IMG/VR virus record: IMGVR_UViG_3300025436_000002 | Span: 64,001-128,000 of that record | Length of the DNA stretch: 64,000 bases | Source of the DNA: a virus | Strand: one strand, 5' to 3' | In this document: piece after piece, positions 27,962 through 63,017 of the stretch | How the letters are laid out: each line of letters begins with the position of its first letter | Position numbering within the stretch: the first letter of the stretch is position 1 | Made by a program: the position numbers and the translations under genes | The notes under the pieces: model-generated | Database searches by the model: none | The model's input: only the letters and a program-made list of their open reading frames with translations | Told to the model about the DNA's origin: nothing

Positions 27962-28282
27962 GTGACAAAGATTACGCTTGAGAATACTAATACACTACGT
28001 ATGAGAACTATTCCAGACGGGTTATCTCTCTTTAATCCTAGGGACGGACAACCTGAAATAGCTTATATGTTCTATGTGCTAGGTAGTAAACTTTGTGTAA
28101 TATCTTCAACTCACTATAATAACTTTAGAGATCCTACCTGTTGGATTGTTAGTTCTAGTAAAGAAAAATTAGAAACCCTAGGGAAGCTTACTGAAGCGTA
28201 TGCAACTTATAGGAACTTTTCTTTTACAACAGATACTAAAGAGATCAAAAGGCATATGATGATGAGGGAATTACTACAATGA
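27962..28282 (+). CDS. KYLMxxELLK-tag family protein
   Basis: Ends EIKRHMMMRELLQ. Confidence 0.75.
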   Translation: MTKITLENTNTLRMRTIPDGLSLFNPRDGQPEIAYMFYVLGSKLCVISSTHYNNFRDPTCWIVSSSKEKLETLGKLTEAYATYRNFSFTTDTKEIKRHMMMRELLQ

Positions 28283-28599
28283 GTAAAGTAACTCTAGGGG
28301 AGGTAATGATACTTGAAGGGATGTCTCCGATAGCTATATCTATATTCAGATATGGATATGATCGAATGATAGAGGAAATATCTTACAGGTTCTATATTAT
28401 GCAAGATAAACTTTTCTATATAGCTGATAAAGAAAACAGCCAGTTATTAGAAAAACCTCTGTGGGGAAGAGACACTAGATTTTCGGGAGATCTTTTAGAT
28501 AAGTTAGCTGAGGAATACTCAGGTGTGGGTAACTATTACCTCATAAGAGGGTATAAGGAAGTTAATAAATACATGATGGCAAGGGAGCTATTAAAATGA
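28279..28599 (+). CDS. KYLMxxELLK-tag family protein
   Basis: Ends EVNKYMMARELLK. Confidence 0.8.
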   Translation: MSKVTLGEVMILEGMSPIAISIFRYGYDRMIEEISYRFYIMQDKLFYIADKENSQLLEKPLWGRDTRFSGDLLDKLAEEYSGVGNYYLIRGYKEVNKYMMARELLK

Positions 28600-28844
28600 A
28601 TACTAAGTACTTTGCAGAGTATTATGATTTCTATAGGAGATACACTAAGAAGTTCTTTTTAAACAAAGACACTAATACTATTTTGTATGATATGGAAAGA
28701 GGAATGCATTCATCCCTCATAAATCTTTTTTATTTTGGAGGATTCAAGTGTCTATTGGAGGAGTTTGGAGGCAACCCTGATTTCTATATATACGATAATA
28801 AGCTATTCGATAAGTATTTAATGATAGAAGAATTAGAAAAATAA
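28596..28844 (+). CDS. KYLMxxELLK-tag family protein
   Basis: Ends LFDKYLMIEELEK. Confidence 0.8.
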   Translation: MNTKYFAEYYDFYRRYTKKFFLNKDTNTILYDMERGMHSSLINLFYFGGFKCLLEEFGGNPDFYIYDNKLFDKYLMIEELEK

Positions 28845-28861
28845 GGGGGGGGGAAAATAAA

Positions 28862-29047
28862 GTGGCTAAACCTATAACTACAACCTCAGAAAAGATTCAA
28901 GCCTATAGACTCAAGTATGGATGTGGAATCATGGATGCAAAGGAAGCAGTACTCTCACAAGAAAGAGAAGATAGGATACTCAGCTTAGAAGCTAGAATAG
29001 AAAAACTCGAGAGATTAGTTAGGAAGTTAGTTAGGGATAGTAAATGA
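28862..29047 (+). CDS. Small protein with EF-Ts-N/L7-L12-like helical motif and coiled coil
   Basis: IQAYRLKYGCGIMDAKEAV. Confidence 0.45.
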   Translation: MAKPITTTSEKIQAYRLKYGCGIMDAKEAVLSQEREDRILSLEARIEKLERLVRKLVRDSK

Positions 29048-29283
29048 AAAAGATAGCTATATACCAAGAACCTAACGGAATATTCTCAAGAGTATATTGG
29101 ATGACGGATACTCTATCAATTTTAATGGAGTACTCTTCTGTTACGAGCTCACTCCCTATTACAGAGTACTTAGGAGATATTTGTGATCTATTACGCCAAT
29201 ATGTACAGACGAGACAAGATTTTAAAATACTGGATCAAAAACTATTTGATAAATATCTTATGGTGGAAGAGTTACTAAAGTAA
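29044..29283 (+). CDS. KYLMxxELLK-tag family protein
   Basis: Ends LFDKYLMVEELLK. Confidence 0.8.
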   Translation: MKKIAIYQEPNGIFSRVYWMTDTLSILMEYSSVTSSLPITEYLGDICDLLRQYVQTRQDFKILDQKLFDKYLMVEELLK

Positions 29284-29375
29284 CAATAATTTAATAATAG
29301 AGAAAGAGAGTATTGACAATGAGTTAATACTCTGCTACTATATTTAGATACTGTTAACTAAAAGGAGATAAAGCT
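29281..29375 (+). promoter_or_regulatory. Hairpin-embedded promoter
   Basis: TTGACA(29313)-17-TACTAT; AGAGTATTGAC/GTTAATACTCT. Confidence 0.7.
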
Positions 29376-29723
29376 ATGAGTAAACCAGAAGAAATAACTA
29401 AGGCTATCTTTAATCAAATAGGTGGGAGAACTTTAATGCTTATGCTCGGAATTACTGTAGCTAACTGTATGCAAATAGATAATAAAGTACAGGGTAATGG
29501 TTTGATGATAGGTAAGATTAAATCTGCTAAAGTTAATACTATCGACATTATCTTAAACGGAAAAGATTTATATGACGTAACTTTTTATATGAAGAAGATA
29601 ACAAAAGGATATGATGTAAAGATAACTAAAAGAATAGAGTTCAAGGATATATATTGTGACGGATTGATGGACTTGATAGGAGCTCAGACAGGTCTTTACT
29701 TAACATTAAATGCAAGAGGATAA
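29376..29723 (+). CDS. Hypothetical phage protein
   Basis: IFNQIGG...DLYDVTF...IYCDGL...TGLY; first gene after promoter. Confidence 0.6.
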   Translation: MSKPEEITKAIFNQIGGRTLMLMLGITVANCMQIDNKVQGNGLMIGKIKSAKVNTIDIILNGKDLYDVTFYMKKITKGYDVKITKRIEFKDIYCDGLMDLIGAQTGLYLTLNARG

Positions 29724-29726
29724 CAG

Positions 29727-29987
29727 ATGAGGAGACCTTCAATATTAACTCTAGTAGCTATAGCTAAGTCTGTTAATAATGAATCAAACTTAGCCTACTA
29801 CCGTGATGAACTGGGTGAGATATATTGGAGTTCTATATTTTCAAAGACCTTAGGAATGCAGGACATATGCTTAGATCGTAATTGGTCTATAAAAAAGTTA
29901 GCATGGATGGTAGCCAACCCTAAATACTTCATAACAGACTCTAAGGAACTGGACAAGTATTTAATGACTAGGGAGCTACTGAAATGA
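29727..29987 (+). CDS. KYLMxxELLK-tag family protein
   Basis: Ends ELDKYLMTRELLK. Confidence 0.8.
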   Translation: MRRPSILTLVAIAKSVNNESNLAYYRDELGEIYWSSIFSKTLGMQDICLDRNWSIKKLAWMVANPKYFITDSKELDKYLMTRELLK

Positions 29988-30337
29988 AGATTTACAAAGC
30001 TTCTGATGATAGTAGTATATTCTATATTAATCTAAATAAACCTAAGAATAGTAAAGACCTACGAGATTTTAAACTTACGTACACGGCTTTAAGTTTTAAG
30101 ACTATTCTAAATATTAACTTCTCCATAAGGGATACTATAGTAGTACTCTATGATACTGAAATACTTTCATTTTTTATTACAAATATTATGAGGAAACGTC
30201 AAAGTATTAACAGTAATCTAATTCTTTCGAGTATTGAATGTTACTATCAACTAAATTTGGAAGACTACGCTAAAAAGCTTCCTATAAAAGATAAAGACTT
30301 TAAGAAAGCTTTAATGATAAAGGAGTTGTTGAGATGA
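29984..30337 (+). CDS. KYLMxxELLK-tag family protein
   Basis: Ends DFKKALMIKELLR. Confidence 0.75.
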   Translation: MKIYKASDDSSIFYINLNKPKNSKDLRDFKLTYTALSFKTILNINFSIRDTIVVLYDTEILSFFITNIMRKRQSINSNLILSSIECYYQLNLEDYAKKLPIKDKDFKKALMIKELLR

Positions 30338-30639
30338 ATACATGGGTTCGGACACCAGTTATCCCTTGTGAAATAGTAGCTATCCAACGTCTAGAAGAAC
30401 TTAGTGGACGGTGGTTATGTGCTTATTGGATTAGAAGAATTCCTATAGAAGGTGTAGTCTTTCATGATCCTAAAGCTATCCAAGCACATTCTTATATAAA
30501 CTATGACTGGAACAATATCTGTGAAGATATGAGAAGTTCTTTAGAAGAACTAATTAAGATAAACCCAGTTGCTATCGAATTGATAATAGATAGAAAAGAG
30601 ATCAATAAGATATTAATGATCATGGAGTTACGGAGATGA
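30334..30639 (+). CDS. KYLMxxELLK-tag family protein
   Basis: Ends EINKILMIMELRR. Confidence 0.8.
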   Translation: MNTWVRTPVIPCEIVAIQRLEELSGRWLCAYWIRRIPIEGVVFHDPKAIQAHSYINYDWNNICEDMRSSLEELIKINPVAIELIIDRKEINKILMIMELRR

Positions 30640-31004
30640 AACCTATACTAACAACAACAATGAATATAGATTTAAGTAAGCACGGCTCTCCTTGTGAACT
30701 AGTAGCTATTGAAGAACTAGCATACCCCCGCTTCTGTGGAGGGATGGGGGAGATAGAGATTACAACTCTCTACTGGATGAGAAAGATAGCTCCAGAAGGA
30801 ATTATAGATAATGATTTTAATAGAGAGTACTATTCAAAACTGATATGTTACTCTTCATTAGATTATATGTGGAACATAGCTGAAAGACAGTATGAACGCA
30901 AATCACTTAAAGAATTACTAGATTCAACCTCATCCCTTAATAATCTAATAACAGATCCTAAAGAAATTAATAAGATATTAATGACAAAGGAGTTACTAAA
31001 GTAA
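30636..31004 (+). CDS. KYLMxxELLK-tag family protein (close paralog of 31291)
   Basis: Ends TDPKEINKILMTKELLK. Confidence 0.8.
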   Translation: MKPILTTTMNIDLSKHGSPCELVAIEELAYPRFCGGMGEIEITTLYWMRKIAPEGIIDNDFNREYYSKLICYSSLDYMWNIAERQYERKSLKELLDSTSSLNNLITDPKEINKILMTKELLK

Positions 31005-31294
31005 TGGAAGACAATTTAAAATTAGTAGCTATAGTTAAATATAGGCAGGGAGGTGCTCTAGTCTATGCTTTCTATGAGAGGCTGGGTTCTATGTGGGGAA
31101 GTCGTAAGACAGTATTAAAGACTATACCTTATTATGACTTTAAAATACATCGTAGTAGTATAGGAATATTCTACAATGGGTACACTAATATAAAATGTAT
31201 AGTAAGAGACTATGAAGATGATTACAGTAAAGAAGTTATAACAGACGAGAAAGAGATCAATAGGTACTTGATGACTAGGGAGTTATTAAAATGA
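31004..31294 (+). CDS. KYLMxxELLK-tag family protein
   Basis: Ends TDEKEINRYLMTRELLK. Confidence 0.8.
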   Translation: MEDNLKLVAIVKYRQGGALVYAFYERLGSMWGSRKTVLKTIPYYDFKIHRSSIGIFYNGYTNIKCIVRDYEDDYSKEVITDEKEINRYLMTRELLK

Positions 31295-31668
31295 AATATC
31301 TCGGAATTAAATACGCAACTATCAACATAGAGACTAGCCATCCAGAAATTGAACTGGTAGCTATCGAGGTATTACCTTATAGTCTACTAGCATGGAGCGG
31401 TAGTTTTGGTGATGAGGATGTTAGCCTTCTGTATTGGATGAGACGGGTACTTCCATCTGGAGTTATAATGAACGAGATCAATCTGAAATACTATCGAGAA
31501 GTAATATGCTACTACACTCCATCAGAACATGTATGGGATAGTGGACGATGTCGTGCTGAATGTACTTCACTCCAGATACTCCTAGATTGTATTCCAGAGA
31601 GTCATAAACTTATTACAGATCCTAAAGAAATAAATAAGATACTAATGACACAGGAGTTATTAAAATAA
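31291..31668 (+). CDS. KYLMxxELLK-tag family protein
   Basis: Ends TDPKEINKILMTQELLK. Confidence 0.8.
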   Translation: MKYLGIKYATINIETSHPEIELVAIEVLPYSLLAWSGSFGDEDVSLLYWMRRVLPSGVIMNEINLKYYREVICYYTPSEHVWDSGRCRAECTSLQILLDCIPESHKLITDPKEINKILMTQELLK

Positions 31669-31928
31669 TGAGAAAATTCATACTCTTAATTATAGATGAT
31701 AACATGACTTTTATCAAACTAACAAAGGAAACAAGTAGGAGAGAAGGAAACTACGGAACATACTATGTTACTACAGACGGGTACGGTACTGGAACAAGAC
31801 TTCCTTCATTCTTTAACCATAAAGACAAAGGAGATATGAGAAGACTACTCTCAGGAAATACTAACAGGAGATTAGCTACCCCCGAGGAGACAGTAAAGTA
31901 TTTAATGCTTGAGGAGTTATTGAAATGA
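31668..31928 (+). CDS. KYLMxxELLK-tag family protein
   Basis: Ends ETVKYLMLEELLK. Confidence 0.8.
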   Translation: MRKFILLIIDDNMTFIKLTKETSRREGNYGTYYVTTDGYGTGTRLPSFFNHKDKGDMRRLLSGNTNRRLATPEETVKYLMLEELLK

Positions 31929-32239
31929 GAACAAGAGTAGCTGAAAGAGTAGCCTTGGTTATATGCCCAGGAGAGTCTAGGTTTATAGAAGGTGTTTACA
32001 TGGACGAAGAGGGAATCCTTTTTGGATTATACTGTAGGACTTGTAAAGAGTTATACTATTATCAAGACGTAAATCCTTATGATAATATTGATAGAATACA
32101 TTACAGATCTGCGGAAGAACTTAGAGATAGACTATCCTCAGATAGTAGCAGGTTTTGTAATTATAATAGTAGCTTCAAAGTAATAACAGATGAGAAAGAG
32201 ATCAATAAGTATCTTATGGTGAGGGAGTTATTAAAATGA
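31925..32239 (+). CDS. KYLMxxELLK-tag family protein
   Basis: Ends TDEKEINKYLMVRELLK. Confidence 0.8.
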   Translation: MRTRVAERVALVICPGESRFIEGVYMDEEGILFGLYCRTCKELYYYQDVNPYDNIDRIHYRSAEELRDRLSSDSSRFCNYNSSFKVITDEKEINKYLMVRELLK

Positions 32240-32418
32240 GAGAACAGATAAACTTGACTTTGGATGATTTATGTGCTATACTGGATTGGGTAGAAGAAAA
32301 CTTATTTGATTGTGACATGAGAGTTGAAGATGAAAATGATAAGGGAGTAGGCAAAGCATATAAAAGAATACGTAAGGAGATAAAAATACATGAACAAAGA
32401 AGAATACCAGAGGATTAA
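32236..32418 (+). CDS. Hypothetical protein
   Basis: ATGA-coupled to the upstream tag gene. Confidence 0.55.
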   Translation: MREQINLTLDDLCAILDWVEENLFDCDMRVEDENDKGVGKAYKRIRKEIKIHEQRRIPED

Positions 32419-32575
32419 AAGTGAATCTACTAAATCCATGGATAGTCGTCTAGGAGTAGATAGGGGCAAGTATATTAAAGATGATTCAGAATTTGATGAT
32501 TCAGAAATTATAGCATTCATTGTAGCATCTATACTTGTAATTGTCTTTAGCATGTTGTTCAGGGGGATTATCTAG
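32390..32575 (+). CDS. Small membrane protein
   Basis: C-terminal hydrophobic segment. Confidence 0.5.
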   Translation: MNKEEYQRIKSESTKSMDSRLGVDRGKYIKDDSEFDDSEIIAFIVASILVIVFSMLFRGII

Positions 32576-32746
32576 ATGAATGAGAAACAATGTAAGGAAT
32601 GTTTAGGTACTGGGAATATAAAGCATACGTATTCAAGAGGATTGTTAATAGGTAACTACTTGGGAACATGTGACTATTGTGGAGGTACTGGAAGCAGACT
32701 AGTTAAAAGTAAAACTAAACTGGATAGAAACAATAACAAACAATAA
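32576..32746 (+). CDS. Small DnaJ-type zinc-finger protein (not in ORF track)
   Basis: CKECLGTG...CDYCGGTG, 56 aa. Confidence 0.55.
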   Translation: MNEKQCKECLGTGNIKHTYSRGLLIGNYLGTCDYCGGTGSRLVKSKTKLDRNNNKQ

Positions 32747-32791
32747 CTAAAATGATACTGTGATTCAAAGGCAGTCTAGGGATTAGCTACA

Positions 32792-33085
32792 ATGTATTAC
32801 TATAAAAAAGTACAGATATCTTGCCTCTCTCTTGATATAGGTATTGGGAAATATGGAGATGATTTGAAAGACTTATTACTAAAGTGGCTACTTAGAGGCT
32901 ATATCCTTAAAATATACAGAAAAGGTGAAGAGATCTTCGACGGCACAGAAAGCCTAGGTCATTTAGAGCATGACGTAAAGCATTACCAACTGAGCCAACT
33001 TCGAGGAGATACCATGGAGTTATTAGATTTAGATGGGAATCCTACAGGTCTACATGGATCTATAAGAGAAAGAAGGTATTGGTAG
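32792..33085 (+). CDS. Hypothetical protein
   Basis: ORF. Confidence 0.45.
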   Translation: MYYYKKVQISCLSLDIGIGKYGDDLKDLLLKWLLRGYILKIYRKGEEIFDGTESLGHLEHDVKHYQLSQLRGDTMELLDLDGNPTGLHGSIRERRYW

Positions 33086-33086
33086 C

Positions 33087-33413
33087 ATGAAAGAAGGTAC
33101 TGGTAAAATGTTTAACGATGCTAAAGTAATGAAACAAGAGTATATAGCAATATCCATGAGCTCCGAGATGGATAGGCATACTTATACTTACTTTATATCT
33201 TCGGGTGTCCTCTTCTTTCAAGCTATAAAAGAAGAGGGTAGGCTAGGGAAGATCCGTAAACACTACCTAAGTAATAAGTACCCCTCTAGGGAAGACTGTC
33301 TTAAAGAACTAATTAAATTTAGTAAGGATGCATTAAATGGATATGAATTAGTAGCTGTAAGTTCACAACAAGAGATTGATAGATATATGATGACAAGGGA
33401 GCTATTAAAATGA
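33087..33413 (+). CDS. KYLMxxELLK-tag family protein
   Basis: EYIAIS...; ends EIDRYMMTRELLK. Confidence 0.8.
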   Translation: MKEGTGKMFNDAKVMKQEYIAISMSSEMDRHTYTYFISSGVLFFQAIKEEGRLGKIRKHYLSNKYPSREDCLKELIKFSKDALNGYELVAVSSQQEIDRYMMTRELLK

Positions 33414-33682
33414 ACGTAGTTAAAAATTTAGTAGCTGTGGCAATTCCTCCGTTACAGAGACTTGATACAAAGTTTTTCCACCTTGATGAGTATGGGATGT
33501 ATGTAGAGGAGTGTGTTTATCTTGGAGAAGATTACCTTGACCGTTCTACCCTACATACTCTTAGGGAAGTAGATCATGATCTTAGAAGGAGATTAGCTAT
33601 CTTTGAATGTACAAGTTTTAGTATCGTACAGGAGGAGAAAGAACTTAGGAAGTATTCTATGATTATGGAGTTGATGAGATGA
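33410..33682 (+). CDS. KYLMxxELLK-tag family protein
   Basis: Ends ELRKYSMIMELMR. Confidence 0.75.
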   Translation: MNVVKNLVAVAIPPLQRLDTKFFHLDEYGMYVEECVYLGEDYLDRSTLHTLREVDHDLRRRLAIFECTSFSIVQEEKELRKYSMIMELMR

Positions 33683-33690
33683 ATTACAAC

Positions 33691-33746
33691 TTTCTCGTCC
33701 CTAGGGCATTCTAATCCATTTGTTACTGGTTTTAGTTAAAAATAAA
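33691..33746 (+). repeat. 56-bp intergenic repeat copy 1 (CCCTAGGG palindrome)
   Basis: 49/56 identical to 37729-37784. Confidence 0.8.
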
Positions 33747-33761
33747 TAGGATGTTGTTAAA

Positions 33762-34073
33762 ATGAAAGAAGAGCAGTGGAAAGTTTTTCGTCAAGATAAT
33801 GAATACTGTATCTCAAGTCATGGTAGATTTATAAGAAGAGATACTGGAGTCTGTTTAAATATAGTAAAAAACTACACTCGTAAGGGCAATTTAACTAGCT
33901 CCAGTGTAGGCATCAGGACTAATGGCAAACGATATTCCTATACTATTCCCATACTAGTTCTTAGTTATTTTAAAGAACCCTCTCCTTATAAAGGATGTAT
34001 TACTTTCCATATTAATGGAGATCCTATGGATAATACAATAGATAATCTAATATGGAAGGGGGTGTTGAAATGA
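33762..34073 (+). CDS. Short NUMOD4/HNH-like protein (degenerate homing endonuclease)
   Basis: EQWK, YCISSHGR, HINGDPMDNTIDNLIW. Confidence 0.7.
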   Translation: MKEEQWKVFRQDNEYCISSHGRFIRRDTGVCLNIVKNYTRKGNLTSSSVGIRTNGKRYSYTIPILVLSYFKEPSPYKGCITFHINGDPMDNTIDNLIWKGVLK

Positions 34074-34387
34074 ATAAAGATTTTACATTGGAGATATTAG
34101 TAATATTAGACACCTTGCCCTCCGTTGCGTTTTATAGTTCGCAAGGTAAGTATTATATAAGTACCTGCCCATGGCAATTCACTGAGGAGATATTATTTAA
34201 AGATAGGTTTAAACATGTATTAGTTAAGACTTCACATAGCCGTGAAGAAGCTATCAAGAGATTTGAAGATTATACAGATAGGGAAGTACTGACTGATAGG
34301 GAAGCTATACGGAGGGCAATGGGGGAATATCATCAAAAAATAAAGGACTTGCACCCTAGGATAGCTACTGGTAAAATGTTAAAGTAA
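34070..34387 (+). CDS. Hypothetical protein (family-like body, divergent tail)
   Basis: ATGA-coupled; LTDREAIRRAM but no ELLK end. Confidence 0.5.
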   Translation: MNKDFTLEILVILDTLPSVAFYSSQGKYYISTCPWQFTEEILFKDRFKHVLVKTSHSREEAIKRFEDYTDREVLTDREAIRRAMGEYHQKIKDLHPRIATGKMLK

Positions 34388-34473
34388 TGTAACGAACTTA
34401 GAAAGGTAGGCTTGTAACTGAGTCTACCTTATGCTATACTAACTATGTAAGGTTGATTAAAGGAGACTGTATT
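34388..34473 (+). promoter_or_regulatory. Hairpin-embedded promoter
   Basis: TTGTAA(34412)-17-TATACT; AAGGTAGGCT/AGTCTACCTT. Confidence 0.75.
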
Positions 34474-35004: not shown

Positions 35005-35030
35005 GTAGGTTAATTAAAGGAGTTAATGAA

Positions 35031-35303: not shown

Positions 35304-35371
35304 TTAAGGAGTTATTGAAATAATCGGTATACTAAGAAGAAGTACGACTGTAAAGATTATAGGTGGCAGGC

Positions 35372-56386: not shown

Positions 56387-56419
56387 CATGTTCTTGTAAG
56401 GTTAAATAAGGAGTTAGTC

Positions 56420-56722
56420 ATGAAAGAATATACGGTAGAATTTATAGTCCTAGTAGGGGAAGGTGCAGGTCATGAACACAAGACTATAAGTATTAAAATA
56501 AATGCTGAGGATACGGAGTCTGCATTAGTGATAGCTAAAAGCATGCTATCCATAGAAATTCAATTCAAAGGGGAGTGTGGGTATTTAGCTCCCAATGCTG
56601 AAAAGCTCCATAAATATGAAATAGATTATGACGATTCAAACCCATGTAATGATTGTGAGTTATCTTCTTGTGTAGGCTGTGCTCATTCTGAAACTAATGA
56701 TGATTGGGAAGACTATGACTAA
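56420..56722 (+). CDS. Hypothetical protein with Cys cluster
   Basis: CNDC...CVGC. Confidence 0.55.
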   Translation: MKEYTVEFIVLVGEGAGHEHKTISIKINAEDTESALVIAKSMLSIEIQFKGECGYLAPNAEKLHKYEIDYDDSNPCNDCELSSCVGCAHSETNDDWEDYD

Positions 56723-56756
56723 GAACTTTGATACATGTGTAAAAGGAGTTAACTGA

Positions 56757-57011
56757 GTGAGGGAATACATACTTTTTGAAAGGTATTGGAACTACGAACA
56801 TAAATACTACTACGTCGAAGATGAAGTTACCTATTGGGTATATTCTGGAGGAGGTCCTCCTGCTATTTCAGCATGGCAAGGCGAGGCGGATGTTAAAAGG
56901 TTAGTCCGTATTACTAAACTTGATAGTCTTGAAAAGGTACAACCTTATATATTAACTATTGGACATCGTGAAGTGGCTAAGTTATTAATGGAGATAGAAT
57001 TGCTAAAATGA
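56757..57011 (+). CDS. KYLMxxELLK-tag family protein
   Basis: Ends EVAKLLMEIELLK. Confidence 0.78.
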   Translation: MREYILFERYWNYEHKYYYVEDEVTYWVYSGGGPPAISAWQGEADVKRLVRITKLDSLEKVQPYILTIGHREVAKLLMEIELLK

Positions 57012-57241
57012 AAAAAGTCTTAGCTCTTATACTTGATATGGAGTCTAATGAGATAATTTGTAGGATAGCTTGTGATACCTATGGAAATACGTTCACTTCG
57101 TTAGGCGGTGTTAATTGGAGATATGCTCAAAAACCTATGTCCTACTACATAAGTTCTGTTAACTTAGGAGAGGGTTATTACGCTGTAACATCTCCAGAGG
57201 GTGTTGATGAGTTACTTATGGTTGAGGAGCTATTAAAATGA
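57008..57241 (+). CDS. KYLMxxELLK-tag family protein
   Basis: Ends GVDELLMVEELLK. Confidence 0.75.
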   Translation: MKKVLALILDMESNEIICRIACDTYGNTFTSLGGVNWRYAQKPMSYYISSVNLGEGYYAVTSPEGVDELLMVEELLK

Positions 57242-57507
57242 AAAGAAGGTTTATTTATTTAGGGCATTCCAATACCTACTACCCAGGTGGATCAGGTAAT
57301 ACATGTTACAATAGATATTATTACTTTAGAGACGAAGAGTATACAGTATATCTCTCGGATATTTGTTATCCTACTAAACATAGTCTATCCCGAATATCAT
57401 CAGATCGTCTGAAATGTAGGCTACACGGGGCAGGAGGACATGTCATGTGTAAACGGAGTAAAAAGAGTATATCTAAATTTTTAATGACTAAGGAGTTATC
57501 TAAATGA
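57238..57507 (+). CDS. KYLMxxELLK-tag family protein
   Basis: Ends ISKFLMTKELSK. Confidence 0.78.
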   Translation: MKRRFIYLGHSNTYYPGGSGNTCYNRYYYFRDEEYTVYLSDICYPTKHSLSRISSDRLKCRLHGAGGHVMCKRSKKSISKFLMTKELSK

Positions 57508-57800
57508 CTAAAAAGTATATAGGACTTATTCTAGGGAGGTACAGTAGGTGCGGAGATTTTAATTTCTATTCACCTTCCATGAAGATATACTATGTTGAAA
57601 ATAGAATTTGTTATCAAAGTGTTGTATTTGACGAGATTCCCGTCATGCCAAACCTTTATAATAAAACATTTACTATGGATACAAGTTATGCTAGAGTAGC
57701 ATTTGACTTAATTATAGCTAAAAGACATAGTTGTCTAACAGTCATTACAAACCATGCTGAGATTATAAAATATTTAATGACGGAGGAACTATTAAAGTGA
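57504..57800 (+). CDS. KYLMxxELLK-tag family protein
   Basis: Ends EIIKYLMTEELLK. Confidence 0.8.
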   Translation: MTKKYIGLILGRYSRCGDFNFYSPSMKIYYVENRICYQSVVFDEIPVMPNLYNKTFTMDTSYARVAFDLIIAKRHSCLTVITNHAEIIKYLMTEELLK

Positions 57801-57841
57801 AGATTAATAAATTCTTAATGTTAAAGGAGTTATCTAAATGA
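57797..57841 (+). CDS. 14-aa tag-only mini-ORF
   Basis: GTG-KINKFLMLKELSK*, coupled by GTGA/ATGA overlaps. Confidence 0.55.
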   Translation: MKINKFLMLKELSK

Positions 57842-58026
57842 GGGATATAAATAGAATACCTAGAATACTTAAAAAATTAGAGGAGGTTTGGACAGCTTCT
57901 CCAGATTTGAGATTATTTCAACTACTGACATGGGTTGTTCGAGACTACAGAGGTGACTTATTCTACCTTGAAGACGACGTTGTAGAGGACAACCTTAATG
58001 AAGAGAAGATACGGAGGCAAGTATGA
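57838..58026 (+). CDS. DUF1040/YihD-like small protein
   Basis: MRDINRI..IL..L..VW...PDLRL.QLL...DLFYLEDD. Confidence 0.6.
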   Translation: MRDINRIPRILKKLEEVWTASPDLRLFQLLTWVVRDYRGDLFYLEDDVVEDNLNEEKIRRQV

Positions 58027-58289
58027 GTTTATCTAAAGAATTCTTCATACAACTTAAAATTAACTTCGACGAAGTCTTTGGAGGTACTAGTCTCCTAGAC
58101 ATGGAACATATGATACATAGTGCGGGTACTATGGGTTTTGACAGGGCTCTTCTAAAGACTTGTAAAGAATTCAATGTGATGTCAACTTACCAAGAGTTTG
58201 AAGGTATGGATTGGTATGAGTATGATGTATCATGTTCTCTTCTAGTCGATGAAGTGGCTAATGCTTTGGAGAGAATACATGAAAGCTAA
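58023..58289 (+). CDS. Hypothetical protein
   Basis: ATGA-coupled. Confidence 0.55.
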   Translation: MSLSKEFFIQLKINFDEVFGGTSLLDMEHMIHSAGTMGFDRALLKTCKEFNVMSTYQEFEGMDWYEYDVSCSLLVDEVANALERIHES

Positions 58290-58566
58290 AAGAGGAAATA
58301 GTGTTTATTTTAATGTTCAAGATATTAACTTTATTCTTATGGAGGAGGGACGTATACTATATGAGTATGTATGGAAAAACAATAATCTCTATGTTAGACA
58401 TAGGGATATGGAAGTTCACCTCATAGGTAACAAGTTGGGTTCTTCTTTAAGAGAGGTGGTAGCTTACTTTAAAGGAAAACATGCGGAGATATATCCGAAT
58501 CTCTTATTTTCAGATGATAAGATTCATATAGATAAATTGTTGGTGATAGAAGAGTTATTAAAATAG
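58279..58566 (+). CDS. KYLMxxELLK-tag family protein
   Basis: Ends HIDKLLVIEELLK. Confidence 0.75.
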   Translation: MKAKRGNSVYFNVQDINFILMEEGRILYEYVWKNNNLYVRHRDMEVHLIGNKLGSSLREVVAYFKGKHAEIYPNLLFSDDKIHIDKLLVIEELLK

Positions 58567-58576
58567 AGGAGGTCGT

Positions 58577-59065
58577 TTGGGTAAACTAAGTTATAGGTTA
58601 GAAGGAACCGTGTTAGTAACTACAGAAACTTTCGGATTCTCGACCAGAAGTGAATATTGTGATCTGGCTACATGGGAGACGTTTGAGATTGATAAGATGG
58701 GAGCTAGATTTTTGGTAACATCTTTAAAGTTTGAAGACAGGGGAGGTTACTTAGATAAGGTAGTCCAAGCTAGGGATCAGCTTGCCAAAGAACTCATGTA
58801 CGGAGAAGTTGTTTGGAAGAGTGCTAAAGAACAAGAAGCTCACCACTCTAAATGTGATAGAAGAAACAAGGAGCTTGAATACTTTAAAGAGGACTTAGCC
58901 CATGATGCGGGAGTCCCTTCTGAGGAAGAAAAAATTGATGCCGTTAACCGAAAGGCTGTAGAATTAGATTGTAAATATGAAATTTATGGGTATAGGTTTG
59001 TACTCGGAAAACCTTTTCACAACACTAAAAAAGGTAGAGACAACATAAATAGATTATTTAATTAG
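58577..59065 (+). CDS. Hypothetical protein (paralog of 44588)
   Basis: Motifs shared with 44588. Confidence 0.65.
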   Translation: MGKLSYRLEGTVLVTTETFGFSTRSEYCDLATWETFEIDKMGARFLVTSLKFEDRGGYLDKVVQARDQLAKELMYGEVVWKSAKEQEAHHSKCDRRNKELEYFKEDLAHDAGVPSEEEKIDAVNRKAVELDCKYEIYGYRFVLGKPFHNTKKGRDNINRLFN

Positions 59066-59433
59066 GAGGTACGGTATATGGTCACACTACTGCTTATTAT
59101 AGCATTTAGCTCTCTAACTTTTAAAGGTCTAACCTTATCTATTTTATTTACATGGTTAAACCTACATCCATTTGTTACCTTATTTCTTATAGGAGAAATC
59201 ACTAGGGATGTGATTAAACTCGGGAGTAATAAGATTGGATAAGATCAACCTAAGGGTACTATTGGATGAGTGGGCTATGGAGCTTAAAGGAGACAGGGAT
59301 TAATAAAGCTCCAAGAGCTCGAGCAAAGATAGTAAGATACATACGAGTTGAGGAAAGTAACTCGCAATAATAAAGTTTATATTATATACAGATTGCCTCT
59401 CATGGGGGGGTAACATTGTACGGAGAATATATA

Positions 59434-59921
59434 ATGTCAGATTAAAATTTAGTTCCAGTAATGACAAGTAGTACGGCTCCTAGTGGAGTAGCTAGTGCAA
59501 GTAGCGTGTATAGTTCTTCTTTTGCTGCATGGTATTCCTTTGATAACAATGTTAATACTTATTGGAGAAGTCTTTCTACCGTAAATAATAAATGGCTTCA
59601 ATATCAATTGACTAGCCAGAAGACGTTAACGGGTTATGCCATAACTGGGTACAATTCCTCCCACAATCCAGCATCATGGACTTTAAAAGGAAGTAATGAT
59701 GGTATAGGCTGGATAACATTGGATACTCAAACAGGTCAGAATACAGATAGAGGAGAGAGTATAGTATTTCTGGGATTAACAACTATACGTACGTCAAACT
59801 TGATAATTTAGTAGCTACTAATGGAGATATAGTATGGATACGTGAATTTGAAATTCTAGGTACTGACTATATAGCCCCTCCCTCAATAATACCTCGAGTG
59901 GTAAACTATTGGTCAATTTAA
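59434..59921 (+). pseudogene. Discoidin/F5-8 type C (galactose-binding-like) domain gene, disrupted
   Basis: LVPVMTS..APSG.ASASS, AW.SFD, WLQYQL, P.SWTLKGSNDG..W..LD; in-frame TAA at 59443 and frameshift near 59750 (other frame YVKL..WIREFEILG). Confidence 0.7.
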
Positions 59922-59941
59922 CATCCTAAGGAACCAAGATT

Positions 59942-59969
59942 AAAAGAGAGTTGTAAGACTCTCTTTTTG
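59942..59969 (+). terminator. Intrinsic terminator
   Basis: AAAAGAGAGT-TGTAAG-ACTCTCTTTTT. Confidence 0.65.
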
Positions 59970-60173
59970 TATTTAAAATGGAATTACTCATCCTACTGTA
60001 AAGAAAACTTAACATTTTAAAGTCTAAGGCTTGACAAATTAAAGAGGATAGTTTATACTAAATACATAAAGACAAGTATTTTATAACGAATGTAGGTTGT
60101 ATCATGAAAGGAAGGAAACGTATGTAGCTTAGGCTATACTAAATAGCATCTAGTGGACTATATTATATTTAAG

Positions 60174-60209
60174 AATGGTGCTACTCCTTCGTGGGTGGTG
60201 CCATTTTTG
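60174..60209 (+). terminator. Hairpin with T tract (terminator of a possible small RNA)
   Basis: AATGGTGCTACTC...GGGTGGTGCCATT-TTTG. Confidence 0.5.
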
Positions 60210-60227
60210 TTAACTTAGGGGTTGCAC

Positions 60228-60527
60228 ATGGAAAAAGATTATTTAGTTTTAATACTTATAGGGAATAACTATTTTTGTTACTATTATGACAAATCTAACT
60301 TTGAAGATAAGATATATCAAGACAGCAATTTTACTAGAATTTCTAATAGAAGTCAAGATTTCTTCATGAGGACTGATGATAGGATTTTAGCTCTGTCGGT
60401 TATATTCACCCACCATCAATTAGATATGATAGGTAAACGAGACTTCCCTAAAAAAGAAAAAGTTACCATTGTAACAGACCGTAATGAATTCGATAAGTAT
60501 TTAATGATATTTGAGTTACTTAAATAA
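60228..60527 (+). CDS. KYLMxxELLK-tag family protein
   Basis: Ends EFDKYLMIFELLK. Confidence 0.8.
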   Translation: MEKDYLVLILIGNNYFCYYYDKSNFEDKIYQDSNFTRISNRSQDFFMRTDDRILALSVIFTHHQLDMIGKRDFPKKEKVTIVTDRNEFDKYLMIFELLK

Positions 60528-60591
60528 AACTTAACATTACTCTTGACAAACCACTCAGGTTCTGGTATTCTTATTAAATAATGAGGTATCT

Positions 60592-60837
60592 ATGAAAGAA
60601 TATATAGCTGAATATTCAACAAATAGGCATATAAGAAGATACTATGTTCGAGAAGGGGAGTTATTCTACAATTTATATAGTCCTTTCTCAGACGGTAGCG
60701 AAGAGAAAAAAGACGTATACAATAACAGTGTTCATGCTCTATCCATTGGGATGTATTTTGTAAACGCATCTAAACTAGTAATACTAAATCAAGGTCTTGT
60801 TGATAAGTATCTTATGCTGGAGGAACTAATGCGGTGA
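60592..60837 (+). CDS. KYLMxxELLK-tag family protein
   Basis: MKEYIA...LVDKYLMLEELMR; promoter TTGACA-17-TATTCT at 60543. Confidence 0.8.
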   Translation: MKEYIAEYSTNRHIRRYYVREGELFYNLYSPFSDGSEEKKDVYNNSVHALSIGMYFVNASKLVILNQGLVDKYLMLEELMR

Positions 60838-61160
60838 GAGAGTACCCTGAAAAGAAAGAGACTGGCTTTGTCGAACAACACGTTTTTATGTGTCTCCATA
60901 ACCCAAATAGACTCCCTGAATATTATCATAAACCAGTAGAGTCCAAGTTTTATATATCTGAAGGACAGAGTTATTACTATTTATTTCAAAATCAATCTTT
61001 GAAGTTTTATACCTCCAATTCAGGCCTCTTAATAAAAGTTCACCACGGCAACCCCCAGAAATCCTTAAACCATTTTAAATATAATAGACTAAACTACGAT
61101 ATAATTACTAATAAAAAAGAAATAAGAAAACACTTAATGATGAAGGAGTTATTGAAATGA
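60834..61160 (+). CDS. KYLMxxELLK-tag family protein
   Basis: Ends EIRKHLMMKELLK. Confidence 0.8.
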   Translation: MREYPEKKETGFVEQHVFMCLHNPNRLPEYYHKPVESKFYISEGQSYYYLFQNQSLKFYTSNSGLLIKVHHGNPQKSLNHFKYNRLNYDIITNKKEIRKHLMMKELLK

Positions 61161-61879
61161 AAAGATGGACTAAAGAAGAAACAGGATTGCTTAAACAAAA
61201 CATGGATGCTACACTGTTAAATTTAAAACAACTACTACCTGACAGAACCGAAGACATGATTATTGAGAAAATTAAAGTGCTCTATCGTCAAGTTGCCTTT
61301 GATAGATGGAACGAAGACGAGTTAAACATCATTAGAGCCAATCCTAATAGATCAGTATTTGAACTACTCAAGCTATTGCCTAATAGAACTTTTAGTGCTA
61401 TTGTGTCAAAGAGGGCTGAGATACGTGGAACTATGGGAGTATCCCGAGATAACAGAGTTGCATGGAGTACTGAAGATATATCTCAATTAAAATATCTCAA
61501 ATCAGAAGGTTACACGAATTACGAGATAGCCTTAACTTTAGGTAGACCTTTAAATTCAGTCATTGGAAGATTATCTACTGAGAGTCTGATGACTCGAAAA
61601 TCAAGGGGACATGCTTGGACACCTAAAGAACTTGAACTTGTACGGGAGAAGGTGGCTGGGAAAGTATCTATCGAAGCTATAGGTAGAGAGTTAAATTTAC
61701 CAACTAATAAAGTCTTCCAGAAAGCAATACACCTAGGATTTAGATCAGCTGAGATAGTAACAGCTAGTAGTCATACTCGTAAAGAGGCTTCAGTCCTTAG
61801 AGAACAGATAAAAGAACTAACCCGTAGAATAAAGATACAGGATAAGACTATAATTAAATTATCTAAAAAACAGGTTTAG
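61157..61879 (+). CDS. Myb/SANT-like tandem HTH-repeat DNA-binding protein
   Basis: Four repeats: RWTKEE, RWNEDE, AWSTED, AWTPKE...L.R. Confidence 0.7.
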   Translation: MKRWTKEETGLLKQNMDATLLNLKQLLPDRTEDMIIEKIKVLYRQVAFDRWNEDELNIIRANPNRSVFELLKLLPNRTFSAIVSKRAEIRGTMGVSRDNRVAWSTEDISQLKYLKSEGYTNYEIALTLGRPLNSVIGRLSTESLMTRKSRGHAWTPKELELVREKVAGKVSIEAIGRELNLPTNKVFQKAIHLGFRSAEIVTASSHTRKEASVLREQIKELTRRIKIQDKTIIKLSKKQV

Positions 61880-61945
61880 GTATTGACATTTAAGATAACA
61901 TCCTTTATACCGTGAGTATGTAGTAGACGATTAAGGAGATAAACC

Positions 61946-62326
61946 ATGAAATGTGAATTTTGTCATATACCTTTAGCTAACGAACCAACCCTTCAAGAGT
62001 ATTTCTACCAAAAGAAGAGAGAGTTCGTTCCAACTCTTCCGACTCTATTTGATGAGTGCCAAATAGAGATAGAACAAAAGTGTATTTGTCCTAAGTGTTT
62101 TATGGCAGGTAGAATCCAACCTGAAGATATATTTATTCAGACTTTTGGATTTGCCCAAAGTGACGTTACCTATGAGTCTATAAAAGAAAAAGTACTTACA
62201 GAAGTTAAGGATAGAATTAAATCAATGGGAGAAACTCAAAAACTTTTAAAGAGAGAGATTGACATATATAAAAAATATCTAATTCCTAAGAAAGAGAAGA
62301 AGACTAAGAAGGTAAAAGGTGTTTAA
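61946..62326 (+). CDS. Zinc-binding hypothetical protein
   Basis: CEFC...CPKC; promoter at 61883. Confidence 0.55.
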   Translation: MKCEFCHIPLANEPTLQEYFYQKKREFVPTLPTLFDECQIEIEQKCICPKCFMAGRIQPEDIFIQTFGFAQSDVTYESIKEKVLTEVKDRIKSMGETQKLLKREIDIYKKYLIPKKEKKTKKVKGV

Positions 62327-62558
62327 TGTGGAAGATTTCACAGCTAGGCAGGTATACGAAATAGCTTATAAACTACGAAGGCTTCCAGAGTGTACTGAGA
62401 AAATGCTTGATAGAAAAATAAAACCTTCAAAGCTTAACTCATGTAAGTGTGTAGTTTGTGATGTTATATTTATGTATACATCTGATCGAAAAAAGACTTG
62501 CTCAGTTAAACGTGGGGACGTATATACTGAAAGATTAGAGTCTGGGTTTTATGGATAG
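62319..62558 (+). CDS. Hypothetical protein with Cys motif
   Basis: CVVC...TCS. Confidence 0.45.
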   Translation: MFNVEDFTARQVYEIAYKLRRLPECTEKMLDRKIKPSKLNSCKCVVCDVIFMYTSDRKKTCSVKRGDVYTERLESGFYG

Positions 62559-62784
62559 AGAGTACGTTGCTCTATCCGTAGGAAAGGAATATGGAACTAT
62601 ATCTTTGAAGTTCTTCTTTAAGGATGGAAGGCTTTATCATGAGACTAGGGCAGGCTCTACTCAGATGAGTCATCTTAGAACTTTAAGAGGTTTGCGTAAC
62701 GCATATAAAGGTGCATTGTATGTAGAAATAGTGACTGGCAAAGAAGTTGCTAAGTACTTGATGTTAGAGGAACTTAAGAAATGA
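62551..62784 (+). CDS. KYLMxxELLK-tag family protein
   Basis: MDREYVALS...EVAKYLMLEELKK. Confidence 0.8.
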   Translation: MDREYVALSVGKEYGTISLKFFFKDGRLYHETRAGSTQMSHLRTLRGLRNAYKGALYVEIVTGKEVAKYLMLEELKK

Positions 62785-63017
62785 TAAAAGAGTATGTAGC
62801 ACTTTCCGTAGACAAAACTTGTAATTTTATCAATCTAAAATATTTTTTTAAGGACGGAGTTCTCTATTGCGAAACATATAAAAAGTACAGCATGATGATT
62901 AGTCAACATAAATCTTTGGAAGAACTTATTGAGGGGTTTACACACTCTAAATCAAATAAACTCATAGTGGGTAGGGAAATGGGTAAGTATCTTATGATAC
63001 TAGAGTTAATGAAATAA
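62781..63017 (+). CDS. KYLMxxELLK-tag family protein (paralog of 62551)
   Basis: MIKEYVALS...EMGKYLMILELMK. Confidence 0.8.
   Translation: MIKEYVALSVDKTCNFINLKYFFKDGVLYCETYKKYSMMISQHKSLEELIEGFTHSKSNKLIVGREMGKYLMILELMK

What the first reader, a model, noticed from the sequence alone, without database searches (positions are those of the whole stretch)
27962..63017. Tag DNA doubles as RBS and shared junction: an integrase-free gene-cassette array
Seen: the junction consensus AARTAYYTAATGAYNNRGGAGTTATTAAAATGAATA(A/G)AGARTAYRTAGC recurs dozens of times. 'xxELLK*' places GGAG about 8 nt before the next ATG, which overlaps the stop (ATGA/GTGA). This produces coupled trains such as 29727-32418, 36427-37725, 40123-41364, 42832-44512, 48397-49958 and 56757-58026. 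Inference: a 30-50 bp near-identical junction lets homologous recombination (the phage encodes RecA, SbcCD and RuvC) insert, delete or reorder whole genes without breaking frame or translation. This would be functionally like an integron array, but without attC sites or an integrase in this window.
Basis: partly seen in the sequence, partly recalled or inferred. Interest (0 to 1): 0.8.

Follow-up and report, generated by a model that had tools for sequence, protein, structure and literature searches.

The report
Phage gene array with dual-use junctions
An uncultured 170-kb phage carries about 69 small genes in head-to-tail trains, and the last ten codons of each gene both build a conserved protein helix and form the ribosome-binding site of the next gene. 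Related phages differ by whole genes cut exactly at these junctions.

Summary
Sixty-nine + strand ORFs (window 25409-63017 and beyond) end in ..KYLMxxELLK*. In 53 of them the stop overlaps the next start (ATGA, GTGA or TAATG).

The "tag doubles as RBS" claim is supported by codon statistics. GGAG occurs in 37/53 coupled tags against 2/16 uncoupled ones. Further upstream the tag is conserved only as peptide.

The tag is probably a structural C-terminal helix of one diverging paralogue family (AlphaFold pLDDT 93.5). It is not a label on unrelated genes, although only about 40-65% of the gene bodies show detectable homology.

The junctions are not near-identical. Mean pairwise identity is 63% and the median exact run is 7 nt.

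Even so, all four informative variants or relatives differ from the window by whole-cassette loss, gain, reordering or tag swapping, with 7 of 9 breakpoints inside junctions. One relative fuses a purA fragment in frame to the tag.

No integrase, resolvase or attC-like hairpin was found; a RecA-family recombinase is present.

Best reading: a tandem multigene family evolving by unequal homologous or microhomology recombination at its junctions. This resembles PeSL shuffling in T4-type phages and is not an integron. The evidence is metagenomic only. The scan did not find this on other DNA.

The parts
25409..63017 (+). Array of tagged small genes. 63 of the 69 tag hits lie in this window, including 6 tag-only remnants. 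The array continues to genome position 148.6 kb, past the window end.
   Evidence: Peptide scan of the whole genome: 69 hits on the + strand, 0 on the - strand.
29727..32418 (+). Nine-gene translationally coupled train with ATGA or TAATG overlaps. This is the region rearranged in relative L069.
   Evidence: ORF coordinates. L069 has the order A-D-B'-E against A-X-B-C-D-E here.
36353..37725 (+). Coupled train. It includes cassette 36708-36965, which is absent in relative L164/L165 and carries a 24-bp in-frame deletion in strains L001/L002/L009/L099.
40123..41364 (+). Coupled train of four tagged genes with GTGA and ATGA overlaps.
42832..44512 (+). Six-gene coupled train.
43046..43084 (+). Left copy of the junction pair that recombined in variant L004. 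It shares a 26-nt exact run, GTTATTGAAATGATGGAATATGTAGC, with 43276-43314.
   Evidence: L004 lacks exactly 230 bp, which is cassette 43068-43301. The crossover lies inside the shared run. This is the longest exact run among 217 junction pairs <=2 kb apart.
43276..43314 (+). Right copy of the same junction pair.
42425..42481 (+). Junction at which relative L068 switches to four different family genes. L068 is 100% identical to the window up to 42464 and diverges 17 nt before the stop.
48397..49958 (+). Coupled train that includes a collapsed cassette at 48848-48903.
56757..58026 (+). Coupled train that includes the 14-codon tag-only ORF 57797-57841.
36353..36430 (+). Tag-only remnant ORF (25 codons) that still ends in GGAG-N8-ATGA.
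37400..37483 (+). C-terminal remnant of a frameshifted family member. Its N-terminal half is ORF 37249-37431, which the body-only profile recognises.
38600..38692 (+). Mini-ORF made of the N-terminal strand plus the tag, with the body deleted.
53584..53649 (+). Tag-only remnant ORF, still ATGA-coupled to the next gene.
57797..57841 (+). Fourteen-codon ORF consisting of a start codon plus the tag, coupled on both sides.
13020..14222 (+). RecA/UvsX-family recombinase, the phage's own homologous-recombination enzyme.
   Evidence: PF00154, 48.7 bits against a cut-off of 27; phrog_97 at 1.2e-35.
4831..6246 (+). SbcD/Mre11-like nuclease.
   Evidence: phrog_284 exonuclease at 2.6e-52; Metallophos_2.
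15061..16170 (+). SbcC/Rad50-like ATPase (N-terminal part).
   Evidence: AAA_23 and SMC_N; phrog_16465.
56354..56389 (+). Example of the stem-loop/promoter module that separates trains. The -35 TTGACG lies in the hairpin loop, followed by a T-run and a TG-extended -10. Similar copies start at 25679, 26629, 34400, 38366, 52456 and 59942.
   Evidence: Repeat families D10-D12; pattern scans.

Best explanation
The region is a tandemly expanded, fast-diverging family of small (about 75-125 aa) proteins, probably expressed early, in an uncultured 170-kb tailed phage.

The shared 'tag' is the last alpha-helix of the protein fold, (K)EIxKYLMxxELLK. Its amino-acid sequence is kept by purifying selection on the protein.

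The genes are packed with overlapping stop and start codons, so the last four codons of that helix also serve as the translation-initiation region of the next gene. The codon before Glu is forced to end in G and Glu is forced to GAG, giving GGAG. Then come 8 A/T-rich bases (Leu-Leu-Lys) and ATGA. This dual use is shown at the sequence level.

The helix plus RBS plus start is the only stretch that neighbouring and distant cassettes share. Homologous, microhomology-mediated and gene-conversion events therefore concentrate there. The phage's RecA-family recombinase may catalyse them, but that is inferred. Because the junction carries both the end of one gene and the RBS and start of the next, products of such events stay in frame and stay translated.

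The result is birth-and-death evolution by whole cassettes: deletion, insertion, reordering, tag swapping and the occasional fusion of foreign sequence. The recombination role is inferred from natural variants and was not observed directly. It appears to be a by-product of the conserved junction, not a selected function.
For: Tag is a structural helix of a shared fold:
- AlphaFold2 on the 51 in-window paralogues gives pLDDT 93.5 and pTM 0.82, with topology b-b-b-b-a-b-a. The tag is helix 67-79.
- A body-only iterative profile (last 14 aa removed) recruits 26/63 own bodies plus 43 external ones before any reversed decoy appears. The only 'decoy' hits are truncated family remnants.
- The remaining bodies, taken as a set, score above decoys (Mann-Whitney 1.5e-9).

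Dual coding:
- GGAG is present in 37/53 coupled tags against 2/16 uncoupled ones (Fisher 8e-5).
- The third base of the variable codon -5 is G in 46/53 coupled tags against 4/16 uncoupled ones, across many different amino acids. The genome-wide third-position G frequency is 15%.
- GAG:GAA is 43:9 in coupled tags against a body usage of 41:59.
- Junction 70-mers are less structured than gene bodies: -6.95 against -11.25 kcal/mol, with z about 0.
- Six tag-only mini-ORFs keep the ATGA relay.

The upstream tag is conserved only as peptide: synonymous pairwise identity at K, E, I, K and Y is 0.34-0.54 against 0.43-0.55 expected.

Recombination footprints at junctions:
- L004 has a clean 230-bp one-cassette deletion inside a 26-nt exact repeat. 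That repeat is the best of 217 nearby junction pairs.
- L164/L165 lack cassette 36708-36965, with a 17-nt overlap at the junction.
- L069 lacks three cassettes and has another in a new position. Its B' cassette has a body like window cassette B, but its last 41 nt are identical to E's tag.
- L068 is 100% identical to the window up to 17 nt before the stop and then carries unrelated family genes.
- In two independent assemblies, an adenylosuccinate-synthetase fragment (PF00709, 55.5 bits) is fused in frame to KFLMVQELLK*.
- Seven of 9 breakpoints fall in junction windows that cover 10% of the array.

Other support:
- RecA-family recombinase is present.
- No integrase or resolvase was found.
- Relatives carry their own repertoires in the same 4-nt-overlap trains.
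Against: - All comparative evidence comes from short metagenome contigs. Assemblers can mis-join at repeats, and the L004 deletion is seen in one contig only. Other samples show the undeleted form.
- Breakpoints at gene boundaries are also what selection for intact genes would leave after random illegitimate recombination. The binomial figure therefore overstates the enrichment, and the events are few and not independent.
- Most junction pairs share only 5-10 nt exact runs, which is too short for efficient RecA-type exchange.
- About half of the bodies are not individually recognisable as homologues. A profile-profile comparison of recruited against non-recruited bodies is not significant.
- The second AlphaFold model, of a divergent member, is poor at pLDDT 62. 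Some bodies could therefore be unrelated.
- Translation coupling and the function of the proteins are untested.
Confidence: 0.6

Rival explanations
1. Ordinary operon packing. The family diverged vertically in place. The conserved helix happens to contain the RBS, as in many coupled phage genes. The differences between relatives arise from random illegitimate recombination filtered by selection for intact genes, with no special role for junction homology.
For: - Mean junction identity is only 63% with a median exact run of 7 nt.
- Synonymous sites upstream of the SD are at equilibrium, so there is no concerted evolution.
- Non-junction changes also occur: a 24-bp in-frame deletion inside 36708-36965, and in L069 a breakpoint at 29016 and an insertion at a non-family RBS.
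Against: - Breakpoints show overlapping identity: 26 nt in L004, 22 nt at A-to-D in L069, 17 nt in L164.
- The one clean deletion among near-identical strains used the best nearby repeat.
- A 41-nt stretch identical to another cassette's tag sits on a body that is only 74% identical to its counterpart.
Confidence: 0.2
2. The junction is a selected, integron-like adapter that lets the phage capture, excise and reorder unrelated genes without an integrase.
For: - Cassette-level variation sits at junctions.
- A foreign purA fragment is joined in frame to the tag in a relative.
- About half of the bodies are not demonstrably homologous.
- No integrase is present.
Against: - There is no DNA-level homogenisation of the junction beyond peptide plus SD.
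- There is no hairpin-forming site.
- The captured purA piece is a truncated fragment (profile positions 69-124 of 416), so it is more likely an accident than a working cassette.
- A large part of the cassettes are paralogues of one fold.
- No circles or excision products could be examined.
Confidence: 0.12
3. The apparent rearrangements are assembly artefacts. De Bruijn assemblers jump between cassettes, or between co-occurring related phages, at the repeated tag.
For: - L068 and the window-like L163 come from the same sample and start at the same base, 42345, as expected at a graph branch.
- L004 is a single 2.4-kb contig.
- Several related phages co-occur in these samples.
Against: - L164 and L165 are 100% identical over 790 nt yet come from two samples and two assemblers, including the purA-tag join and the missing cassette.
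- A separate contig encodes the L068-type HMMMKELLK variant with further upstream differences (P0092).
- Flanks in L069 are 74-93% identical to the window, so it is a distinct lineage and not a mix of window reads.
- The exact repeats (17-41 nt) are far shorter than the k = 141 of the MEGAHIT contigs.
Confidence: 0.08

Closest known systems
PeSL (promoter-early stem-loop) cassettes of T4-type phages (Arbiol et al. 2010, PMC2839356; Comeau et al. 2014, PMC4122927)
   Same: Short repeated motifs flank small non-essential ORFs in hyperplastic regions of a large lytic phage. Recombination between them, without any site-specific recombinase, deletes, inserts and replaces whole genes between close relatives (abstract read).
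   Different: PeSLs are non-coding promoter/terminator modules. Here the repeat is coding (a protein helix) and supplies the RBS and start of the next gene, so exchange keeps both the frame and the translational relay. Mini-circles, which were shown for PeSLs, are untested here. This phage also has PeSL-like stem-loop/promoter modules between trains.
Tandem multigene families evolving by unequal crossing-over and gene conversion (birth-and-death evolution; 'genomic accordions' in poxviruses, named from general knowledge)
   Same: Many paralogues lie head to tail. Copy number and content differ between relatives. Crossovers fall in the most conserved segment. Pseudogenes and remnants are present.
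   Different: The size is unusual: 69 members, roughly 12% of a 170-kb phage genome. The only strongly conserved segment is about 10 codons. That segment also carries the neighbour's RBS.
Integron gene-cassette arrays
   Same: An array of small, promoterless, same-strand ORFs whose content varies by whole units.
   Different: No IntI-type recombinase, no attC-like folded sites, and no attI/Pc structure. The cassettes are mostly paralogues, and exchange depends on homology and is not site-specific.
Translational coupling by overlapping stop/start (ATGA) with an SD inside the upstream gene (general bacterial and phage feature, from general knowledge)
   Same: GGAG lies 8 nt upstream of an ATG that overlaps the upstream stop codon.
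   Different: The same SD-bearing codons are reused about 50 times because they belong to a conserved protein helix. Synonymous and neighbouring-codon choice is visibly bent to keep GGAG only where a downstream gene follows.
WGR-like small beta-sheet-plus-helix domains (PARP WGR; stand-alone phage WGR proteins)
   Same: The model of member 43968-44213 aligns to 2ra8_A residues 1-77 (Z 6.7, rmsd 2.9 A, 69 residues) and to the PARP-3 WGR domain 2eoc (Z 4.6). The best BFVD hits are phage 'WGR domain-containing' proteins (E 7e-3, TM 0.57).
   Different: No Pfam WGR hit in any of 51 members. The Z values lie in the range that the tool describes as common for unrelated folds. No function can be drawn from this.

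Membership tests
Integron | IntI tyrosine recombinase adjacent to the array | tested here: not met
   PF00589 has no match in the 170,200-bp record (CheckV about 90% complete), while controls are positive in 14/14 genomes. PF00239 is also absent.
Integron | attC sites: imperfect inverted repeats that fold into hairpins at each cassette boundary | tested here: not met
   The 69 junction 70-mers have mean MFE -6.95 kcal/mol and mean z -0.09 against shuffles. Only 1 of 69 has z < -2, and they are less structured than gene bodies.
Integron | Cassettes of unrelated origin captured from outside | tested here: inconclusive
   At least 40% of bodies are homologous and the rest score above decoys as a set. 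Profile-profile comparison of the two groups is not significant. One foreign purA fragment carries the tag in a relative.
PeSL-type homology-driven modular shuffling | Short repeats flanking small ORFs, with indels and replacements between close relatives bounded by the repeats | tested here: met
   L004, L068, L069 and L164/165: 7 of 9 breakpoints lie inside junction windows.
PeSL-type homology-driven modular shuffling | The repeat is a sigma-70-like early promoter plus a stem-loop terminator | tested here: not met
   The junction is coding sequence plus RBS and has no hairpin. Separate stem-loop/promoter modules do lie between trains.
PeSL-type homology-driven modular shuffling | Excised mini-circles | not testable with these tools
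   This needs reads or outward PCR.
Tandem paralogue family with unequal crossing-over | Members are homologous over their whole length | tested here: inconclusive
   In favour: AF2 pLDDT 93.5 from the paralogue alignment; the body-only profile recruits 26/63 own bodies; residual signal in the rest. Against: hhalign is not significant, and the second model has pLDDT 62.
Tandem paralogue family with unequal crossing-over | Copy-number differences between relatives with crossover in shared sequence | tested here: met
   L004 crossed over in a 26-nt exact run. L164 has a 17-nt overlap. L069 has a 22-nt overlap.
Translationally coupled operon | Overlapping stop/start with an SD at functional spacing inside the upstream gene | tested here: met
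   53/69 tags have ATGA, GTGA or TAATG. GGAG ends 8 nt before the ATG and is enriched only where a start follows. Actual coupling was not measured.
WGR domain (PF05406) | Match to the family profile | tested here: not met
   No WGR hit at E <= 1 in any of 51 members.
WGR domain (PF05406) | WGR fold | tested here: inconclusive
   2ra8_A Z 6.7; 2eoc Z 4.6; 4dqy_C Z 4.2; BFVD WGR proteins E 7e-3.

The most novel reading that the evidence does not exclude
The helix-plus-RBS junction may be a selected recombination adapter. Any sequence that recombines into it, even by microhomology as with the purA fragment, would be delivered in frame, given the family's C-terminal helix, and plugged into the translational relay. 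The phage lineage could then build and reshuffle a combinatorial arsenal of small early proteins, and occasionally capture foreign coding sequence, without any site-specific recombinase.
Probability: 0.15. Interest if true: 0.85.

Novelty: new variant of a known kind. Interest (0 to 1): 0.62.

Why it matters
Phage hyperplastic regions full of small ORFans are where much anti-host and anti-defence innovation is thought to arise, yet how they turn over is known in detail for few systems, PeSLs in T4-type phages being the main one.

Here the repeated linker is itself protein-coding and translational. One 30-nt stretch is constrained in three ways: as a fold element, as an SD with its spacer, and as the place where cassettes break and rejoin.

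This gives a concrete, testable example of how overlapping constraints can channel recombination so that products stay expressed.

It also flags a 69-member protein family, about 12% of the genome, with no Pfam or PHROG match. Its conserved helix and variable sheet suggest a common partner and diversified targets.

Tried and rejected
- Near and protein-level searches of 50,697 phage records found no close relative. The DNA polymerase reaches only about 25% identity.
- IMG/VR scans found no related locus. 
- The metagenome pattern scan gave mostly single chance hits. Only L061, L068, L069, L099 and L132 were family arrays.
- The 97-kb JGI contig that carries variant P0019 could not be fetched. 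Several ENA contigs of relatives have gene tables but no DNA.
- Pfam and PHROGs gave nothing for ten members and nothing consistent for 51. Pfam also gave nothing useful for ten non-family ORFs inside the array.
- Foldseek against the PDB gave nothing at E <= 1e-3. The ESM Atlas model of the protein is poor and its neighbours are uninformative.
- The literature search for a described family with this tag found nothing relevant.
- The near-identical strains L001-L015 and L161-L163 are 99-100% identical. They show only one 24-bp indel, one homopolymer change and the L004 deletion within the array, so they cannot test gene order.
- I rejected the idea that the whole 50-nt consensus is a DNA-level element, because of the codon analysis.

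Full report
**What the window is**

The window is bases 64001-128000 of a single 170,200-bp virus record. CheckV rates it about 90% complete and no terminal repeats were found. It encodes:
- a family-A-like DNA polymerase;
- an SbcD-like nuclease and an SbcC-like ATPase;
- an ATP-dependent ligase;
- a RecA/UvsX-family recombinase (PF00154, 48.7 bits);
- DNA methylases;
- an RNA ligase.

Nothing close exists among 50,697 deposited phage genomes. The polymerase reaches only about 25% identity.

**Checking the observation**

The core 19-mer GGAGTTATTAAAATGAATA occurs 29 times at up to 3 mismatches, against 0.2 expected. A peptide-level scan of the whole genome finds 69 ORFs ending in [LIMVFS][MLIV]xx[EG]L[LMSKER][KRQN]*. 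All are on the + strand and none on the - strand. They lie between window 25409 and about 84.6 kb in window numbering, which is genome 148.6 kb.

Column statistics put GGAG at -15 to -12 from the last base of the stop, and the next ATG or GTG at -3 to -1. That is an 8-nt spacer. Fifty tags end in ATGA or GTGA and three in TAATG.

Two details are overstated:
- The part of the consensus after the start codon (MNKEYVA) is a feature of one subfamily, roughly 15-19 genes.
- The junctions are not near-identical. Mean pairwise identity is 63% over the 40-nt tag, the median longest exact in-register run is 7 nt, and only 6 of 2346 pairs share 21 nt or more.

**Is the tag DNA really an RBS?**

Conservation upstream of the SD follows codon structure. 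At the conserved Lys, Glu, Ile, Lys and Tyr positions, the pairwise identity of synonymous codons (0.34-0.54) matches what the family's own codon usage predicts (0.43-0.55). That part is therefore kept as peptide, not as DNA.

The SD region behaves differently:
- The codon before the conserved Glu encodes many different amino acids (R, K, E, Q, L, M, W, S, G). It ends in G in 46 of 53 tags followed by an overlapping start, against 4 of 16 tags that are not. The genome-wide third-position G frequency is 15%.
- Glu is GAG in 43 of 52 coupled tags, although GAA is the preferred codon (59%).
- Full GGAG occurs in 37/53 coupled against 2/16 uncoupled tags (Fisher 8e-5).
- Junction 70-mers are unstructured and less stable than gene bodies: -6.95 against -11.25 kcal/mol, with mean z of -0.09.
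- Six tag-only mini-ORFs (for example 57797-57841, which is 14 codons, and 36353-36430) have lost the protein body but keep the ATGA relay on both sides.

The 'doubles as RBS' claim is well supported at the sequence level. Actual coupling was not measured.

**What the tagged genes are**

BLASTP of bodies with the tag removed links only a few small clusters. No Pfam or PHROG family matches.

An alignment of 51 members shows a common pattern: an N-terminal xYxAx strand, an aromatic YY/YF pair, an LxxL helix, then TDxKEIxKYLMxxELLK. AlphaFold2 with only these paralogues as alignment gives a very confident model: pLDDT 93.5, pTM 0.82, topology b-b-b-b-a-b-a. The tag is the last helix, residues 67-79.

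Tests of body homology with the last 14 residues removed gave these results:
- Cross-validated body-only profiles recognise about a third of held-out members. No reversed sequences score, and the only 'decoys' are truncated family remnants.
- Iteration recruits 26 of 63 own bodies and 43 external bodies before reversed sequences appear.
- The remaining 32 bodies score above 108 decoy ORFs as a set (Mann-Whitney 1.5e-9). Ten exceed the best decoy.
- A profile-profile comparison of the two groups is not significant.
- A second model, of a divergent member (48007-48291), is poor at pLDDT 62. It does show four strands and a confident C-terminal helix.

My reading is that this is one diverging family in which the tag is a core structural helix. 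Homology is shown for roughly 40-65% of members and unproven for the rest.

Structural neighbours hint at a WGR-like fold: 2ra8_A 1-77 at Z 6.7, the PARP-3 WGR domain at Z 4.6, and phage WGR proteins in BFVD at E 7e-3. These scores are in the range seen for unrelated folds, so I draw no function from them.

**Relatives**

An exhaustive profile search of 1.84 billion representative proteins finds 97 hits. Of the proteins returned by all searches so far, 58 are not encoded by this genome, and most of them carry a clearly recognisable form of the tag. Their contigs, where gene tables or DNA are available, show the same trains with 4-nt overlaps. The architecture is therefore a property of a phage group, not of one genome.

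**Does gene order vary, and where are the breakpoints?**

Near-identical strains (99-100% identity, 18 contigs) are almost invariant in the array. The one exception is informative.

*L004.* It lacks exactly 230 bp, which is cassette 43068-43301. The crossover lies inside a 26-nt run shared by the two flanking junctions. That run is the longest among all 217 junction pairs within 2 kb of each other.

*L164/L165.* These are identical over 790 nt yet come from two samples and two assemblers. They are 71-78% identical to the window.
- They lack cassette 36708-36965, with a 17-nt overlap at the junction.
- At the head of the train they carry an adenylosuccinate-synthetase fragment (PF00709 positions 69-124, 55.5 bits) fused in frame, right after its KKIG, to KFLMVQELLK* and the next start.
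- The window genome has no purA.

*L069.* It is 74-98% identical to the window. Its order is A(29727)-D(31004)-B'(30334-like, with a nonsense codon)-E(31291), against A-X-B-C-D-E in the window.
- The joins lie at the junctions.
- B' follows B through its body, but its last 41 nt are identical to E's tag.

*L068.* It is 100% identical to the window for 120 nt, diverges 17 nt before the stop of 42173-42481, and continues with four family genes absent from the window. An independent contig encodes the same variant ending (P0092).

In all, 7 of 9 array breakpoints fall in junction windows that make up 10% of the array. The non-junction events are a breakpoint at 29016, an insertion flanked by a duplicated 19-nt RBS of a non-family gene, and a 24-bp in-frame deletion.

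Conserved gene order is therefore refuted, and breakpoints are enriched at the junction.

**Caveats**

- The events are few and not independent.
- Selection for intact genes alone would bias surviving breakpoints toward gene boundaries.
- Short-read assemblers can mis-join at repeats.

Three observations argue that at least some events are real and guided by homology or microhomology: the overlapping identity at the joins, the choice of the best nearby repeat, and the reproduction of L164 in a second assembly.

**Comparison with known systems**

The record has no Phage_integrase, Resolvase or RuvC match, and the junction has no hairpin. It is therefore not an integron and not site-specific.

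The closest described mechanism is PeSL-mediated modular shuffling in T4-type phages (PMC2839356). There, recombination between repeated promoter/stem-loop modules deletes, inserts and replaces small ORFs. Here the repeat is a coding helix plus RBS.

The phage also has stem-loop/promoter modules of the PeSL kind between its trains, with the -35 TTGAC in the loop.

The other obvious frame is unequal crossing-over in a tandem multigene family. I therefore classify the finding as a new variant of a known kind.

There is no evidence that the homology is selected for recombination, because synonymous sites sit at equilibrium. The integron-like 'system' reading remains a minority possibility.

**Verdict**

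Shown:
- the recurrent junction;
- the codon-level tuning for an SD;
- the absence of integrases;
- cassette-level variation with junction breakpoints in metagenomic relatives.

Inferred:
- translational coupling;
- involvement of the phage recombinase;
- one common fold for all members.

Unknown: the function of the family and the host.

Noticed in passing
L164:1-191 and L165:2-132: In a relative phage, an adenylosuccinate-synthetase (purA) fragment (PF00709 positions 69-124 of 416) runs in frame into the family tag KFLMVQELLK*. The join comes right after PurA's KKIG, which resembles the KKIA of some tags. The sequence is identical in two samples and two assemblers. The window genome has no purA.
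   Followed up: partly
window 25679-25714, 26629-26664, 34400-34440, 38366-38405, 52456-52488, 56354-56389, 59942-59967: Repeated composite modules lie between trains. Each is a GC-rich stem-loop with the -35 TTGAC(G/T) in its loop, then a T-run and a TG-extended -10 (TATGCTATxCT). They resemble the PeSL promoter/terminator cassettes of T4-type phages.
   Followed up: partly
window 25593-25734 and 56268-56409: A 142-nt direct repeat at 87% identity, 30.7 kb apart. It covers a tag, the stop and the stem-loop/promoter module, and is the second-longest junction-containing repeat in the array.
   Followed up: no
window 50246-50422: About eight tandem 21-nt repeats (D-G-L-S-T-T-V heptads) inside the 579-aa ORF 50009-51748, which has weak tail and virion-protein PHROG hits.
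   Followed up: no
window 22661-23118: A strain-variable stretch upstream of the array. Contig L010 differs at 150 alignment columns (14 of them gaps) here but is almost identical everywhere else over 15.7 kb.
   Followed up: no
window 28845-28853: A poly-G tract directly after a tagged gene's stop varies by 3 nt between strains (L010).
   Followed up: no
window 25741-26340 and 27255-27959: Two HNH homing-endonuclease-like genes (HNH_5; NUMOD4 + HNH_3, from precomputed Pfam hits on identical contigs) sit immediately upstream of the first long train. Double-strand breaks made by such enzymes could stimulate local recombination.
   Followed up: no
L069 (reverse strand) 451-705: A 255-bp insertion relative to the window carries two tiny CxxC-type ORFs. 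It is flanked by a duplicated 19-nt RBS and start region of the non-family gene 29376-29723.
   Followed up: partly
window 37249-37483: A family member split by a frameshift into an N-terminal ORF (37249-37431) and a tag-bearing remnant (37400-37483). The same split is present in strain contigs.
   Followed up: partly
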